A DNA stretch of 64,000 nt from Escherichia coli (GTDB lineage: Bacteria; Pseudomonadota; Gammaproteobacteria; Enterobacterales; Enterobacteriaceae): assembly GCF_041248615.1 (NCBI RefSeq), contig NZ_CP158425.1. One strand, given 5' to 3'. A program made the position numbers. Positions 36,001-45,000 of the stretch are shown here, piece by piece. Numbering within the stretch: the stretch's first letter is position 1; every line of letters begins with the position of its first letter.

Positions 36001-39000
36001 TATTTCCCAGAGCGTTATCATTGTGAACTCAGCTAAAGTTCGTGGGCTCTTTACCAGAAAGCCATTTAATGCTCGTCGCCCCTTCAGCATGCCAACGTGG
36101 TAGGTCTTGTTGGGATAGGGTTTCATTGCCACCAGCGAATCAGCTTTAAGCTCAAGTGACAATTCAGGGACAGACACGGACATGAGAGTACACTTGTTTT
36201 TCATATGGTGAAGAATACGTGGCACAAGATGCAGATACATCATTTTCTCCTTTTATGGATATAACTGGCAGATCCTCAGCAGCATCAAAATAGTTAATAG
36301 ACTTTTTTAATTGGTTAACCACTGTTGATTGACTTGTTTTATGTCTCTGAGAAATTATTCGTTTTGTTTCTGTTCGTTATACTGCTCAAACCAGAAGACG
36401 ACCGGTTTTACTACAATATGAAGCAAACCAAAACGTTCTGCGGTACGGAAATTCACGCTATATGCGCGAGCCCGTTCAACCTGTTTGGTAATTTCATTTC
36501 TCATTCCTTCAACACTAAAAGCTCCTTTAAAAAGGTTGCAGGGAGCGCATGATGGAAATAAGTTTTCTATTGCATGCAGTTCAGGGTGCATAACCTTACC
36601 CGTACTTCGGGCAACATGAGTTACGCCGCTGCCGACCGGGGCTCTCACCAGTTCAAAGTCGCGTCGAACAGGCTCAACATGATCGGCATGCCACCCTTTT
36701 TCAGGAAGCTTGCAACCACAATAGGCACAACGCCCCCCAAATTTCATTCGCAGCTCAGCTCGCTGTATTTTAGAGATCTTATTTTTAGGTTTTGAGAACC
36801 TACCATCAGGTGATTCCGCTTTGGATAACTTTGCTGAGGGCTCAGGTAACTCAACTAAATTCCCGTTGATATTTATCACCTTGACCATATCATTTTCCGC
36901 CTTTACTAATCTCACGGGCACAGGAGCTGGCTTAAGTAACCGCTGAAGTTAACAGCCACTGACTGCCTCTACCCAGACCTTCTGTTTATACTCAATAGGC
37001 CACCCCTCTTTATCTGCCCGGATGACGCAATCATTTACCGTGGTGCGTGACCGGATACGAACATCAAGCGGAAGCGAATCGTTATCCACACGAGCCTGTG
37101 CCTCATTTAAAATGCGTAAAAACATCTCTTTGGTCATTCAGATACCCCCTCAACTTTGCGAATTTTGATCAGATGAGGGCGATTCAGTTTACAAAGTTGT
37201 TCTGTCGCTTCATCAATCGAATTGAACCGATGAGCCTCTTCGATATTTAAAGTCCAGTATTTCGCTTTCCCTTCTCCCAGATCGGACTCAAAATAATTTC
37301 GCTTTACATCCATTTTTTTAGGCCTGCCATTTATCTTGACGACATTATGTCTGTCATCAAAAAGAAATTCGTCCCCCTCAAAAGTGATTAATACAAATGG
37401 CCCCTCAGGCTTGGAAGTCCGGGGACTTCCCATTTTCAAAGTCATACTTCAGCCTCTCGATAGAACTCATGAAACCTCAAATTAAAATGGACTCACACCA
37501 CACTGATTCAGTATTCCTCCTGAACCCCATTAGGCTCTGTTGTGATTTCATATTTAATACCGCCAGGTGCTCCCACAGCGTCCGCGACCGACTCACACAG
37601 CAGCGAGAGATCGTTGAGGGTCATTGGGTGTTCAATGTCCAGCGTGAAGAGTTTCCCGGCTTGCTTGGCGGCTGTCTTGTCAGCATGTTCAGCATTAAAA
37701 AGGTATACGGTGTGTTTTTCCTGAGCGGGGGTATTTTGATTTTGCATTGATGATCCTTTTGTTTAGTTCCCCGATTCCGGGGGTGAGTGAATTAATTTAA
37801 ATTTATATTTGTCTGGTTTAATTAGAACGTTTCCAGGCTATGCGTAAACAGGTAATGCAAAGGCTGTATCAACAGGATTAAAGTTACTTTTCTGGATGCA
37901 GCAACGCTTGGACATGATGTCCACATTACATCACGATCAAAGCTAAGTTTTTTTTGTATAACCCCTTCATTTTCGTGTGTTTCGCGTTTCAGACGCTTAT
38001 ACGACCTGCCTGACCATCCTCATCAGAAGGCGGTTTAACAGTCCTTTCGCTGTCGGGCGATTGCTATCGACATAGTAAAAACCTGTTTTGGTCGTACCGT
38101 GAGCACTGCTCAGCACCCTCAGTTCCCAGATAACGTCACGGATAACGCCGCCATTTTCTGGCTTAAGGCATTCAGATAAATGGCGCATGAAACGAGCTCT
38201 TACGGCACGGTAATAGCGGAACTCCTCTGGCTGGTTAGTATTTTCTTTCACCCGGAGTCGCTGGTTACACAGAGTTAGAACTGCATCCATCATTCCCGCC
38301 TTCAGCTTCGCCTGGATCGCACCTTGTTGCTGTTCCCTCTCACCTTCGAGTAACGTTAAGATTCTTTCTCCGAGTGCCGTCTTGTTGTGTACGTGCAACT
38401 GTACACAGGCAGCTACGCATGCCCAGAATCTGAACTTTTTTATCTGTCCACGCAATTTCCGGGCTACAACCTGACGGTATGCAGTATCGCTGAGTATTTT
38501 AAAACGCCGACTGGCAACCAGCTCTGGAAGCGACACTCTTTCGCCTATCCCCAGGCGGGAAAAGGTTTGTCCCCGTTGTGCGAGACGATGATAGACAGCG
38601 CCCTTCCCTTTTGAAATTCGGACCGCGCCATAACGAAGAAGATACTGAGCAGCAGTCGTTGGAGTAAACTCACCGTCAGCGATGCTCTGGCGTAACCCGT
38701 CGTATTCATGCCAGATAATCCAGGACGCCGTATCTTCTTCAACAGTCAGCTCATCCTCTTCCTCGAATGCCACGACGACAGAACTGCTCTCTCCGGTCTT
38801 TAGGCTACGTGAAGCCCTGGGGTCAGCCTGCCCGTCAAAATAGGTCATCAGCGGCAACGTATCAGTCAGTCCATCATAAGCTGTACCGAACCGGCCTCCG
38901 GGCAGTTTCATCCAGAGTGGAGCTGGCATTGGTGTACGGGCCACAGGCAGCATGTCAGGCTCATCCTCAAGAAGGTCCAGATCGGCCTCTTCCCAGACTC

Positions 39001-42000: not shown

Positions 42001-45000
42001 TATTCATTTTTGCAAATAAAAACCGCCAGACGGCGGCTTTTATAAAGAGGGAAATATCATTGGAAGCTGAAATTACTTCACGGCAGGCCGACAAATTACG
42101 CGACTGCTGTGAGCTGAAGCGAAACTTGTAGAGGAAACTATAATCACCTTTTCTAAGTCGTCGGCACTGTCGGCAATATGATGCCGAAAAGCCTCCTCTG
42201 CATCACCAGGGGAATCGGCTTCGACCGGGTAGGCCTGATCATCATCATCAAACATAATGCGCCCGGAAATGAGATAAAGTCGGCTCAAATCTGGCGTCGC
42301 TGCGCTCGTGCTTCGTTCGTTCAGATTCATTTTTTCTCCGTCTGTTGCTCGTAAAAAGAATGACGCCGGTTTAAAAGGCGTCGCCAGGGTTCAGGCTAAA
42401 ACGCAGGGTTGCCATCGAGGAAGCTCATTGGCTGGCCAATAGCGGATGCCACCCTGAGAATTTCACCTGGTGTGGCATAGCGCAGCATTTCTGAGCGTCC
42501 AAATTTCTGATACTCATCTACTGACATCTTTCTCCACTCGGGGTGAGGATCTTTTCCGCACAGTGACCAGTTGCTTTCAGAGGAATCACGACGGAGAACG
42601 TACACATCAAGCGAGGCTGTAAGCCCGCTTCCATATCCCCGCTGCGCTACAATACGAACCTGAGAACCATCGTCGCGTTGCAACGTCTGGGTTAATTTCG
42701 TGATAGGATCCTGAGAATGCATGCCATTTACCTCGTTTTTAAAAGAATTACCGTAAGTAAATGATACCGAATCGAGAATTCTGGCTAATAGGTCAGAAGA
42801 AAAAATATTGCATATTTTTGAAGTGTAGGATAATGATTAGAATAAAATGGCCTGAATAAATCGTTAGCTTTAACTCTGCTTATTTCAGAAAAACTCTGAA
42901 TTAGTAGTGATGGAAAACGACGCGGTGAAAAGTAACTTTTACACCGCAATTCAGAAAAAAGTTTCAGTTAGTCACATTACGAATAACCCGGCTTACTTTC
43001 GCATGTGCGTTCCCCTGCATGTTAAAGTAAAGCCCTCCGGGCAGACTCGTCGCCCACTTAACGCCTCGCTCAGCCATACGCTTCGGTGTTTCCAGCCAAC
43101 CACGAGGAATATTGCCCGGAACGTTACCGATAACCCGTCAAATGCATGCTGCTACCCGGATGCCGCCGGGAATATCGCATTTGGATTCAACAATATGCAT
43201 GACCTCAGATAAAGCACCATGCCGCTGGACATGATCGCCAATGTGCAACTCGATAGGAGAAGCCATTTCTGAATCTGACTTCATATCTGTCCACCTTTAA
43301 TTTAGAAACCGTCTAAATTACCAAATTAGTTAATCCAACAACATCTGTATCACAACCATCAATTTGTTTTTGTTGGGTCTATATCGTAGAAACAAGTGAA
43401 TAATGAATACACTCGTTAATACAGACAACCGGAAATGAATGACTACCTGATTATCTCAGCGGTATATGCTAAGCCGTTAATATTGCCATTCTCTGGTGGA
43501 ACCACTGCTAAATGAATAAACCGTTTGTCGCTTCAAACCACTTTATCAAAACCGTTAACTTGCATTAAGTCCGATACAGTTCGGCGAGCTCATCCAGCAT
43601 GGGGTTACTCTTATATCCCGGTGCGGCCGTAAAAAGGTTTCGGGAAATCGCCAGCCACTCCATGATTTTGTCCGTCGCCAGCCAACGTCTGCCAAGTCGC
43701 TCGGCTGCGATGGGGACTTTATGCAAGCCAGCGAAGGGATCTACAACAAGATCTCCCGGCTCTGTCAAAAACTCAATCAGAAACGCTGCAAGCCTGGTAG
43801 GAGACGTTGCACCGTGCAGCGGAAAACCGAGCTCGCGGGCAATGGAATGGCAAAATCTCGTATCAGCGCAGCTATTGCCGTAAAACAAAGTATTCTTGGG
43901 GATCGTTCCTTCTGTTTTATTTCCAAAGGAACCGCTTTTAAGCTGGTACGCCCCATCACCATAAAAGGTCGTGCGATTTTCACCGCCTGCTGCCTGCAAT
44001 TTTAGATGCTGGTCTGAATGCGGTTGTAGTACACGTAAGTTGTTTGAACGAACCTTACTCGCATCATTGGTAAACCACAGCACAGGCTCATACGATGAGC
44101 AGAGCTGCACCCGTTGCTTACATGCCCAGTGCGTTGGCGATGGGGGCTTACTGCGATTCACCCACTGAAGCCTGTCCATGAGCTCAAGCCCCAGCTTGTC
44201 ACATAATGCCAGTGTCAGACGCTCCAGATACAGAGAACGTGAAGGCCTACCCCTATTAAAGCTATCTTGAGTGATATTCAATGCCACACTTGCGCCCGGT
44301 ACAAGCTGTTTCACGATCGGTTCGAGGATACGCAGAAGCCAGTCAATATAAGCCTGCTCGCCACGCCCCCCTCCGTGCCCGTAGTCTCTTGAATTTCGAA
44401 GGAGGTAAGGTGGCGAGGTCAGGCAAAGATGAATTTGCTCGGTGATATTGCTGAAGAAGGCATAGGCGTTTCCAAAAACCGATGCCCCAAGAGAAGTTGA
44501 GAAACCGACAACACAGAGCTTTTCCCATGACTCATGCAGGTTTGTTTTCGTCTTAGAGGCGTATCTCCAGACGCCCCGTTTTTCTGGAACGCGTTCGATG
44601 ACCCCGGCCTGACGGAGAGTCTGCTGAAACCAGCGAACCTTATGTTTGACGCCGCTGGTTCTGGTTTTATCTGACCCAAATTCTTTCAGTTCGTGCAATT
44701 CGGCATCCGACATGCCAGTTTTACGCTGCACTTCGCGATAAAGCTCGTCGTTGGTCAACGGCGATTCGGAGGCAGCGTAGATATGCGCAATTAAGTCCGT
44801 ATTAATCGTACTCATCAGCCATCCTAATGGGGATACAGTTATTATATCGGCCTGATGGTTGGAAGTGAGATTACTAAATCAGACCGATCTGGTTTGTTGA
44901 AGACTTTGCCAAATCATGCAGCACAGCTGGGCTTGCACAGAGCGAGCCGGGCTCCTTTAGCGGAGACACCTTCGCAAGTTGGATTAATCAGCCTCAAGAT

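What the first reader, a model, noticed from the sequence alone, without database searches (positions are those of the whole stretch)
36355..44815. Orphan DndC-like PP-loop ATPase with a long C-terminal extension, clustered with an HNH endonuclease and an atypical DNA methyltransferase
The 794-aa protein (37997-40381) carries the SGGKDS-type pyrophosphatase loop and a CxxC block as in DndC/IbrA-type DNA-modification enzymes, but none of the partner genes of phosphorothioation systems (cysteine desulfurase, SMC-like ATPase) is nearby. It has an extra ~450-aa C-terminal region of unrecognised fold. Within 6 kb on the same strand are an HNH nuclease (36355-36921) and a beta-class methyltransferase-like protein (43565-44815). 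This could be an uncharacterised DNA-modification or anti-restriction module.
Basis: partly seen in the sequence, partly recalled or inferred. Interest (0 to 1): 0.8.

Follow-up and report, generated by a model that had tools for sequence, protein, structure and literature searches.

The report
Stand-alone DndC-like enzyme on IncHI2 plasmid
A large resistance plasmid carries an intact, well-conserved enzyme related to the one that puts sulfur into the DNA backbone, but without that enzyme's usual partners and with extra domains of its own; the same lone gene is found on thousands of conjugative plasmids and its function is untested, while the nuclease and methylase next to it are unrelated neighbours.

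Summary
The window is IncHI2 plasmid p14408_M1 (mcr-1). All three ORFs are real. The 794-aa protein has an intact PP-loop (SGGKDS) and the five cysteines shared with canonical DndC. It scores far below the DndC equivalog cutoff, and aligns with a canonical DndC only over aa 70-353. A confident AlphaFold model shows four parts: a PAPS-reductase-fold domain, a helical module, a 160-aa α/β domain with no match to solved structures, and a basic, fast-evolving helical bundle.

It belongs to a distinct family of 560-880-aa stand-alone proteins on conjugative plasmids (IncHI1, IncHI2, IncC, others) and ICE-like elements. About 3.7% of PLSDB plasmids carry a homologue. No Dnd, Ssp or BREX partner is nearby in any locus examined or in the 228 kb of this plasmid that was checked.

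The HNH and methyltransferase genes are not co-conserved: IncHI1 keeps the gene and its small flanking ORFs but lacks both. So the "three-gene module" is not supported; the [quoted passage not shown] reading is plausible but untested. An IS903B-associated deletion removes its 5' part in pEC-IMP-type IncHI2 plasmids, so it is dispensable there.

Side finding: a palindrome, AAAGTWACTTT, occurs 16 times in the window (0.06 expected).

The parts
37997..40381 (-). 794-aa stand-alone DndC-like PP-loop/[4Fe-4S]-type enzyme (RefSeq WP_000469466.1, 'PAPS reductase family protein')
   Evidence: ORF; family hits; AlphaFold model pLDDT 92.5; 144 homologues with E<=1e-5; IncHI2 vs IncHI1 dN 0.17 against saturated dS
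39326..40216 (-). aa 56-352: PAPS-reductase-fold PP-loop domain with SGGKDS (aa 82-87) and conserved C182, C294, C307, C313, C316
38957..39319 (-). aa 355-475: beta-hairpin plus helices, conserved family-wide; partly alignable to one DndC profile
   Evidence: Secondary structure; PADLOC PDLC02661 aligns 63-474; occupancy and conservation
38489..38956 (-). aa 476-631: alpha/beta domain conserved family-wide, with no detectable similarity to solved structures
38000..38488 (-). aa 632-794: basic long-helix bundle (pI 10.3, net +15), present mainly in the ~800-aa members (IncHI, IncC and relatives); fastest-evolving part
40554..41003 (-). p149, unknown small protein immediately upstream; co-conserved with the enzyme only within IncHI-type plasmids
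   Evidence: 60% identity in IncHI1, 33% in L007; no family or PDB hit
41055..41846 (-). p263, unknown protein upstream; co-conserved only within IncHI-type plasmids (duplicated in L007)
   Evidence: not DndB-like by BLASTP; no family or PDB hit
42022..42034 (-). Terminator-like hairpin with T-run between p85 and p263
   Evidence: consensus scan only
42929..42939 (.). Copy of the palindrome AAAGTWACTTT upstream of p108; marks the start of the block that contains the DndC-like gene
37880..37890 (.). Copy of the palindrome between the DndC-like stop and p79; marks the start of the block that contains the HNH gene
36355..36921 (-). HNH endonuclease: a neighbour, not co-conserved with the enzyme outside IncHI2
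   Evidence: PHROG 2118 1.7e-55; absent from L012, L007 and the other loci
43565..44815 (-). Mrr_N + N6_N4 beta-class DNA methyltransferase: a neighbour, not co-conserved with the enzyme outside IncHI2
   Evidence: Pfam; PADLOC MTase_II 1.2e-46; absent from L012, and only its N-terminal 59 aa has a small homologous ORF in L007

Best explanation
The 794-aa ORF is a functional member of a distinct, widespread family of stand-alone DndC-like enzymes carried by conjugative plasmids and integrative conjugative elements.

Shown:
- It keeps the ATP-pyrophosphatase PP-loop and the five cysteines that it shares with canonical DndC.
- It is under strong purifying selection.
- It is conserved as a solo gene while everything around it changes.

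Inferred mechanism:
- Like DndC, SspD and BrxP, it adenylates a phosphate or carbonyl oxygen on nucleic acid. It then delivers sulfur obtained from the host cysteine desulfurase IscS through its Fe-S/cysteine centre.
- Its own C-terminal domains (a domain with no match to solved structures, plus a basic helical bundle) take over the DNA binding and target selection that DndD/DndE or SspB/SspC provide in the multi-gene systems.
- The purpose is to mark the element's own DNA (phosphorothioate or a related modification) so that it survives restriction or modification-dependent defences in new hosts. That would make it an establishment or anti-defence function.

The adjacent HNH nuclease and methyltransferase are independent accessory genes of the same IncHI2 gene array. 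They are possibly co-regulated with it but are not partners.
For: - Catalytic signatures are intact and invariant in 137 family members: S82, G84, D86, S87, C182, C313, C316, with K85, C294 and C307 nearly invariant.
- All five cysteines align with canonical DndC of a Salmonella dndBCDE cluster.
- DndC is by far the closest known family: NCBIfam DndC 6e-34 against tRNA thiolase TtcA 1.6e-3; PADLOC DndC 4e-38 against BrxP 5e-6. A PADLOC 'Type II methyltransferase' profile also matches aa 65-334 (7.5e-23).
- Purifying selection: dN 0.17 against saturated dS between IncHI2 and IncHI1.
- Solo status holds in 13 loci from different elements and across the plasmid checked.
- 2,659 PLSDB plasmids carry a homologue, and 2,063 of them are conjugative.
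- Context is establishment or anti-defence-like. In IncC it lies in the same co-directional array as ssb-bet-exo, two MTases and a primase. In IncHI2 the array holds orphan MTases, hok/sok and RelE.
- Samuel et al. 2024 list a 73-member 'PAPS reductase' family among unknown families enriched in plasmid leading regions (PMC11541004, Supplementary file 3).
- A 2026 preprint reports DndC/SspD-like PAPS reductases in Aca-regulated anti-defence operons. It cites a phage PAPS reductase that evades Dnd (10.64898/2026.07.27.740549).
- The C-terminal bundle is basic (pI 10.3) and evolves 4-5 times faster than the catalytic domain.
- Dispensable: an IS903B-associated deletion removes aa 1-311 in pEC-IMP-type IncHI2 plasmids.
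Against: - No experiment or paper on this gene was found.
- No modification chemistry is shown, and the substrate (DNA, RNA or other) is only inferred from the nearest family.
- Canonical phosphorothioation needs DndD/E or SspB/C, and no single-protein writer is known.
- In IncHI2 the gene lies about 30 kb and more than 40 ORFs from the probable oriT. Transfer polarity is unknown, so leading-region status is not established here.
- The identity of Samuel et al.'s family 645 with this family was not verified.
- From my own knowledge, not tested here: strains carrying IncHI2 or IncC plasmids are not known for the Dnd DNA-degradation phenotype. That argues against dense genome-wide phosphorothioation.
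Confidence: 0.45

Rival explanations
1. One reading: HNH nuclease, DndC-like enzyme and methyltransferase form one DNA-modification or anti-restriction module that works together.
For: All three lie on the same strand within 8.5 kb. All have DNA-related domains. Copies of the same palindrome precede the blocks that contain each gene, so co-regulation is possible.
Against: IncHI1 keeps the enzyme and its small flanking ORFs but has neither HNH nor MTase. None of the other loci has them. Seven other ORFs separate the three genes, and a terminator-like hairpin lies between the MTase and the enzyme. The plasmid has at least 5 MTases and 3 HNH genes, so proximity is not improbable.
Confidence: 0.05
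2. It is the modification half of a plasmid-borne defence or competition system. It marks resident DNA so that an unidentified effector (possibly p263 or p149 in IncHI plasmids) can attack unmarked phages or rival plasmids.
For: DndC, SspD and BrxP all belong to defence systems (PADLOC hits; PMC10853773 and PMC12839542). p263 and p149 are syntenic with the gene in IncHI1, IncHI2 and L007, with short gaps. One clade has a DndB homologue two genes upstream (27% identity to canonical DndB, E 2.5e-23).
Against: No neighbour is conserved across clades, even by phmmer. p263 is restricted to IncHI-type plasmids and has no nuclease or ATPase signature. No known restriction partner (DndFGH, SspE, PglZ, BrxL) is present in any locus.
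Confidence: 0.15
3. The substrate is not DNA. The enzyme thiolates or otherwise modifies tRNA/RNA or a small molecule, or acts as a regulator like the poorly understood IbrA (annotated as a co-activator of prophage gene expression).
For: PP-loop/[4Fe-4S] enzymes include tRNA thiolases (TtuA, NcsA, TtcA), which appear as weaker structural and sequence matches. The fold alone does not define the substrate. No DNA-binding domain was identified.
Against: Sequence similarity to DndC is about 30 orders of magnitude stronger than to TtcA. The CG-ARFGCxxC block matches DndC. The gene is found in conjugative elements and other mobile-element-like loci, in arrays rich in DNA-metabolism genes.
Confidence: 0.2
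4. It is a non-modifying decoy. It titrates host phosphorothioation components (IscS, DndD/E) or binds DndFGH- or Ssp-type effectors, and so blocks PT-based defence without modifying plasmid DNA.
For: Homology to DndC would allow competition for DndC's partners. The C-terminal part evolves fast, as expected for an interface in conflict. A preprint reports a phage PAPS reductase that evades Dnd.
Against: The PP-loop and all five cysteines are invariant or nearly so across a family at 25-30% identity, which indicates selection for catalysis rather than binding only. The usual hosts of these plasmids (E. coli, Salmonella, Klebsiella) mostly lack dnd or ssp systems (my own knowledge, not tested).
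Confidence: 0.1

Closest known systems
DndC (TIGR03183), sulfurtransferase of the DndABCDE DNA phosphorothioation system
   Same: PP-loop SGGKDS. Five aligned cysteines including the CG-ARFGCxxC block. 28% identity over aa 70-353, hhalign E 5.8e-39. Best hit among defence-system profiles.
   Different: It scores 117.6 bits against the curated cutoff of 290.4. There is no dndD, dndE, dndB or dndA nearby or in the parts of the plasmid checked. It is 794 aa against 543 aa for the canonical DndC used here. The region after about aa 353 does not align to that DndC and includes a domain with no match to solved structures.
SspD and BrxP (PAPS-reductase components of SspABCD and BREX type 4 phosphorothioation systems)
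   Same: Same PAPS-reductase/PP-loop superfamily and the same general chemistry, as described in PMC12839542 (PMC12914056 turned up in the search).
   Different: Only a weak BrxP hit (4.7e-6) and no SspD hit. No DUF4007/SspB, SspC/BrxC, PglZ or BrxL is nearby. The C-terminal additions differ: BrxP has a Mog1p/PsbP-like domain plus a ferredoxin-like region (PMC12839542).
IbrA/IbrB-type and phage 'PAPS reductase' genes (PHROG 424, 12882, 2302)
   Same: Mobile-element-borne PAPS-reductase-like genes that lack Dnd partners, and whose function is unproven.
   Different: Phage proteins match only the N-terminal domain at 24-30% identity and are much shorter. No ParB-like IbrB partner is adjacent in IncHI2. 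The IbrA relation is recalled from memory and was not tested.
Orphan DNA methyltransferases and other anti-restriction genes of plasmid leading regions (Samuel et al. 2024)
   Same: Solo DNA-modifying enzyme in a co-directional array of small establishment-type genes on conjugative plasmids. A PAPS-reductase family is listed among the unknown leading-region families.
   Different: Different chemistry (PP-loop/Fe-S rather than AdoMet methyl transfer). Leading-region position is not established for IncHI2. No functional data.

Membership tests
DndC (DNA phosphorothioation sulfurtransferase, TIGR03183) | PP-loop ATP-pyrophosphatase motif SGGKDS | tested here: met
   SGGKDS at aa 82-87; S82, G84, D86 and S87 invariant and K85 nearly invariant in 137 family members
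DndC (DNA phosphorothioation sulfurtransferase, TIGR03183) | Conserved cysteines for the [4Fe-4S] cluster plus the DndC-specific cysteine dyad (RFGCxxC) | tested here: met
   C182, C294, C307, C313 and C316 align with the cysteines of a canonical Salmonella DndC and are invariant or nearly invariant in the family. Cluster binding itself was not testable.
DndC (DNA phosphorothioation sulfurtransferase, TIGR03183) | Score at or above the curated equivalog cutoff | tested here: not met
   117.6 bits against a cutoff of 290.4; PRK06850 129.9 against 536
DndC (DNA phosphorothioation sulfurtransferase, TIGR03183) | Operonic linkage with dndD and dndE (with or without dndB and dndA) | tested here: not met
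   None annotated in 228 of 238 kb of the plasmid. tblastn with canonical DndB/D/E gives nothing with E below 0.1. Absent in 13 homologous loci, except a DndB homologue in one clade.
DndC (DNA phosphorothioation sulfurtransferase, TIGR03183) | Full-length collinearity with DndC, including its C-terminal region | tested here: inconclusive
   hhalign to one canonical DndC stops at aa 353. One PADLOC DndC profile extends to aa 474. aa 476-794 has no counterpart in any profile.
DndC (DNA phosphorothioation sulfurtransferase, TIGR03183) | Produces phosphorothioate linkages in DNA | not testable with these tools
   Needs LC-MS/MS or iodine-cleavage assays
SspD / BREX type 4 BrxP | Profile match, and linkage with SspB/DUF4007 and SspC/BrxC (plus PglZ and BrxL for BREX) | tested here: not met
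   BrxP only 4.7e-6 over aa 68-264, and no SspD hit. No such neighbours.
Assimilatory PAPS/APS reductase (CysH, PF01507) | PAPS-reductase fold of about 240 aa with a C-terminal catalytic ECGLH cysteine, in a sulfate-assimilation context | tested here: not met
IbrA/IbrB pair | PAPS-reductase-like IbrA adjacent to a ParB-like IbrB | tested here: not met
   No ParB/DndB-family hit among 15 neighbouring ORFs. p263 is not similar to DndB. The only ParB-HTH protein in the window lies 14 kb away, at 23235-24419. Direct comparison with an IbrA sequence was not done.
Leading-region anti-defence genes of conjugative plasmids | Located within the first ~30 ORFs after oriT on the strand transcribable from the transferred strand | tested here: inconclusive
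   The gene points toward the probable oriT (7406-8165, upstream of mobI) but lies about 30 kb and more than 40 ORFs away. Transfer polarity is unknown. A PAPS-reductase family is leading-enriched in PMC11541004, but its identity with this family is unverified.

The most novel reading that the evidence does not exclude
The family is a self-sufficient, single-polypeptide writer of a DNA backbone (phosphorothioate) or related sulfur/adenylate modification. Its C-terminal α/β domain, which has no match to solved structures, and its basic helical bundle would replace DndD/E or SspB/C. Major resistance plasmids (IncHI1, IncHI2, IncC) would use it to camouflage their DNA and escape host immunity during establishment.
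Probability: 0.2. Interest if true: 0.8.

Novelty: new variant of a known kind. Interest (0 to 1): 0.55.

Why it matters
IncHI2, IncHI1 and IncC plasmids are main vehicles of mcr-1, carbapenemase and multidrug resistance genes. About 3.7% of all PLSDB plasmids carry a homologue of this gene, yet it is annotated only as 'PAPS reductase family protein' and I found no study of it. If it modifies DNA on its own, it would be the first single-protein relative of the phosphorothioation machinery. It would also be a new way for plasmids to evade restriction, and a possible target for limiting plasmid spread. If it does something else, a conserved Fe-S/PP-loop enzyme with a domain unlike any solved structure is still an unexplained plasmid function worth testing.

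Tried and rejected
- Module with HNH and MTase: rejected on synteny.
- p263 as a divergent DndB/ParB partner: no BLASTP similarity, no Pfam, NCBIfam, PADLOC or PHROG hit and no PDB sequence hit. Its homologues are restricted to IncHI-type plasmids.
- A conserved small partner immediately upstream or downstream across clades: phmmer all-against-all of 32 flanking proteins found matches only within closely related plasmid groups.
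- Sequence search of solved structures: only FAD synthase at E 0.007 over the PP-loop.
- AFDB50: only uncharacterised family members.
- The search for related loci on genome contigs with alignments A2 and A5 failed, because no stretch was conserved enough. Neighbourhoods were sampled with the look-up of encoding contigs and PLSDB instead.
- Literature: ten searches found no paper on this plasmid gene. One search was wasted on the prefix 'ibra'. The reference for 'a phage PAPS reductase evades Dnd', cited in a preprint, could not be retrieved.
- Promoter and terminator consensus scan: not above shuffled expectation.
- dN/dS: dS is saturated, so only dN and an upper bound on the ratio are meaningful.

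Full report
**Source and observation**

The window is identical to bases 160001-224000 of E. coli plasmid p14408_M1. This is an IncHI2A, MOBH, conjugative plasmid that carries mcr-1. The 9-kb region of the finding is present in 1,023 PLSDB plasmids, nearly all at 95% identity or more.

The three ORFs are real and lie on the minus strand.
- The 794-aa protein contains SGGKDS (aa 82-87) and CGARYGCSLC (aa 307-316).
- The HNH protein matches PHROG 2118 at 1.7e-55.
- The 416-aa protein is an Mrr_N winged helix fused to a beta-class N6_N4 methyltransferase. Motif IV is SPPY and motif I reads DPFAGLH.

All three sit in a 24-kb array of mostly small, co-directional ORFs (28-52 kb). The array follows the Tra1 transfer region, which holds mobI, the mobH relaxase and traD at 8-15 kb. 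The probable oriT lies in the 7406-8165 intergenic region.

**What the 794-aa protein is**

DndC is clearly the closest known family.
- NCBIfam DndC scores 6.4e-34 and PRK06850 1.2e-37. The tRNA thiolase TtcA scores only 1.6e-3.
- PADLOC DndC scores 4e-38 and BrxP 4.7e-6. SspD does not hit.

The scores are nevertheless far below the curated equivalog cutoffs: 118 against 290 bits, and 130 against 536 bits.

A profile of 137 family members aligns with a canonical DndC from a Salmonella dndBCDE cluster (L010) only over aa 70-353, at 28% identity. Within that stretch the PP-loop and all five cysteines (C182, C294, C307, C313, C316) coincide. These residues are invariant or nearly invariant across a family that is otherwise only 25-30% identical. 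The catalytic apparatus is therefore under selection.

**Structure**

AlphaFold2 with the family alignment gives a confident model (pLDDT 92.5, pTM 0.84). It has five parts.
- aa 1-55: an acidic, disordered tail.
- aa 355-475: a hairpin-plus-helices module. One PADLOC DndC profile still covers it.
- aa 476-631: an α/β domain.
- aa 632-794: a bundle of long helices.

About 120 aa of it is partly covered by a DndC profile. About 160 aa has no match to solved structures. About 160 aa is an extra helical bundle found mainly in the longer family members.

**The family**

A search with aa 344-794 alone finds 223 representative clusters. In nearly all of them this region follows an N-terminal stretch of about 300 aa. 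Lengths range from 560 to 880 aa. Conservation holds to about aa 640 and then collapses. The terminal bundle is present mainly in the ~800-aa members, such as those of IncHI and IncC plasmids.

AFDB50 returns only uncharacterised "PAPS reductase family" proteins. tblastn finds homologues in 2,659 of 72,556 PLSDB plasmids, of which 2,063 are conjugative. The IncHI1 orthologue is about 75% identical and the IncC one about 47%. Other hits come from Aeromonas, Vibrio, Pseudomonas and Burkholderia plasmids. Phages carry only shorter proteins that match the N-terminal domain.

Between IncHI2 and IncHI1, dN is 0.17 while dS is saturated. By domain, dN rises from 0.09 (catalytic) to 0.41 (terminal bundle).

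The gene is dispensable. In pEC-IMP-type IncHI2 plasmids, an IS903B-associated deletion has removed the 3' part of p149 and aa 1-311 of the enzyme.

**Orphan status**

No Dnd, Ssp or BREX partner is annotated in 228 of the 238 kb of the plasmid. tblastn with canonical DndB, DndD and DndE finds nothing.

Neighbourhoods were examined in thirteen loci from other elements: IncHI1, an IncHI-like plasmid (L007), IncC, a KorB/ParA plasmid, and several loci with ParA-like or type IV pilus genes or other mobile-element character. None has such partners. The single exception is a real DndB homologue two genes upstream in the KorB/ParA plasmid clade (E 2.5e-23 to canonical DndB). No flanking protein is conserved across clades, even by phmmer.

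**The proposed cluster**

BLAST and tblastn across loci give a clear result. IncHI1 pHCM1 retains p108, p85, p263, p149, the enzyme and p79 in order. It has no HNH and no methyltransferase within 8 kb on either side. L007 retains p263 (duplicated), p149 and the enzyme, with a p108 homologue a few kb downstream. The HNH and MTase genes are therefore IncHI2-specific additions.

The plasmid carries at least five annotated methyltransferases and three HNH proteins. One of each near any given gene is therefore not surprising.

The three genes also fall in different blocks of the array, separated by copies of a repeated palindrome (see below). A terminator-like hairpin at 42022-42034 lies between p85 and p263, and so between the MTase and the enzyme. 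I conclude that the three genes are not a module. p263 and p149 are possible lineage-specific partners, but they have no recognisable domains.

**Likely function**

The following is shown:
- an intact DndC-type catalytic core;
- solo conservation on conjugative elements;
- purifying selection;
- dispensability;
- placement in arrays with establishment or anti-defence character.

On the last point, in IncC the gene shares a co-directional array with ssb-bet-exo, two methyltransferases, a deoxynucleotidase and a primase. In IncHI2 the array holds orphan methyltransferases, hok/sok and a RelE toxin.

The literature adds two indirect supports. Samuel et al. 2024 list a 73-member "PAPS reductase" family among unknown families enriched in plasmid leading regions (PMC11541004, Supplementary file 3). 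A 2026 preprint finds DndC/SspD-like PAPS reductases in Aca-regulated anti-defence operons, and cites a phage PAPS reductase that evades Dnd.

From this I infer a stand-alone nucleic-acid sulfur or adenylate transferase. It would use host IscS for sulfur and its own C-terminal domains for substrate binding. It would modify the element's DNA to escape host defences.

This is unproven. The substrate, the chemistry and the leading-region status in IncHI2 are all untested, and no single-protein phosphorothioate writer is known.

**Novelty**

The gene has been an annotated ORF in well-known plasmids for years, for example Q935R1 of S. Typhi pHCM1. I found no functional or comparative study of it. 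It fails the membership tests for DndC proper, SspD, BrxP, CysH and the IbrA/IbrB pair. I file it as a new variant of a known kind: a solo, extended DndC-like family.

**Side finding**

The exact palindrome AAAGTWACTTT occurs 16 times in the window against 0.06 expected. There are only four one-mismatch variants.
- Two copies lie in the probable oriT region.
- Two lie just upstream of a 394-aa protein with a ParB HTH domain (23235-24419).
- Single copies lie upstream of the blocks that contain the MTase, the enzyme and the HNH gene.
- About 28 more lie in the rest of the plasmid, only two of them in the 50-kb stretch that holds most of the resistance genes. IncHI1 has the motif too; IncC does not.

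This looks like the dispersed operator of a global regulator, comparable to KorB operators on IncP plasmids. No paper containing the sequence in this context was found.

Noticed in passing
window 4423, 7483, 7968, 12829, 14559, 19461, 24510, 24636, 31629, 35149, 37880, 42929, 47141, 52345, 58062, 60286 (11 nt each): The exact palindrome AAAGTWACTTT occurs 16 times against 0.06 expected, with only 4 one-mismatch variants. Most copies are intergenic, upstream of blocks of the gene array, and two lie in the probable oriT region. About 28 more lie in the rest of the plasmid, only two of them in the 50-kb stretch that holds most resistance genes. It is present in IncHI1 and absent from the IncC locus. 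It looks like a dispersed operator of a global regulator.
   Followed up: partly
window 23235-24419 (-): A 394-aa protein with a ParB HTH domain (Pfam 1.5e-5) has two copies of the palindrome directly upstream (24510, 24636). It is a candidate KorB-like autoregulated global regulator that binds AAAGTWACTTT.
   Followed up: partly
window 30596, 34213, 41915, 47020, 49440: A second repeated motif, TAATAACCTGA (extended form about 26-33 nt), recurs in the array. At 30596, 41915, 47020 and 49440 it lies about 50-80 nt upstream of a minus-strand ORF start. There are 12 matches with at most 1 mismatch against 2.2 expected. It may be a shared promoter or leader element.
   Followed up: no
L011 (pEC-IMP, NC_012555.1) 2270-5452; same pattern in hits H63-H67: In a sublineage of IncHI2 plasmids (Enterobacter, Klebsiella, Salmonella), an IS903B element with an adjacent deletion removes the 3' part of p149 and aa 1-311 of the DndC-like gene. 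The remnant is annotated as a hypothetical protein.
   Followed up: yes
window 32198-33507: An IS3-family element (25-nt inverted ends, ALIL frameshift pseudoknot at 32533-32649) is inserted next to, and apparently truncates, the DUF3085 gene. That gene is 125 aa here (33468-33845) and 163 aa in pSTM6-275.
   Followed up: partly
window 37508-37747, 31006-31230, 30766-30966 (all -): Three small ORFs (66-79 aa) in the array appear to be paralogues of each other, since all match the same ORF in L007. IncHI1 also has several copies. Function unknown.
   Followed up: no
window 43565-44815 (aa 1-59) and L007 1894-2073: The N-terminal Mrr_N-like winged helix of the methyltransferase has a 40%-identical counterpart encoded as a separate small ORF in the IncHI-like plasmid L007, which lacks the methyltransferase domain.
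   Followed up: no
window 28242-28556 (-); 48568-48864 and 48914-49384 (-): A hok/sok toxin-antitoxin locus (Rfam sok, 81 bits) and a RelE/ParE-family toxin gene preceded by a 156-aa ORF lie in the same array, next to a 393-aa flavin-reductase-like gene (47378-48559).
   Followed up: no
L004/L005 6488-10010: In a clade of ~70-100-kb KorB/ParA plasmids (Citrobacter, Salmonella, E. coli), the 669-aa family member has a true DndB homologue (356 aa, PF14072) two genes upstream. This gives a DndB plus DndC-like pair without DndD/E.
   Followed up: partly
PADLOC profile PDLC03333 vs aa 65-334 of the 794-aa protein: A profile labelled 'Type II methyltransferase' (544 positions) matches the PAPS-reductase domain at 7.5e-23 over its first ~300 positions. 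This suggests that methyltransferases fused to a DndC-like domain exist.
   Followed up: no
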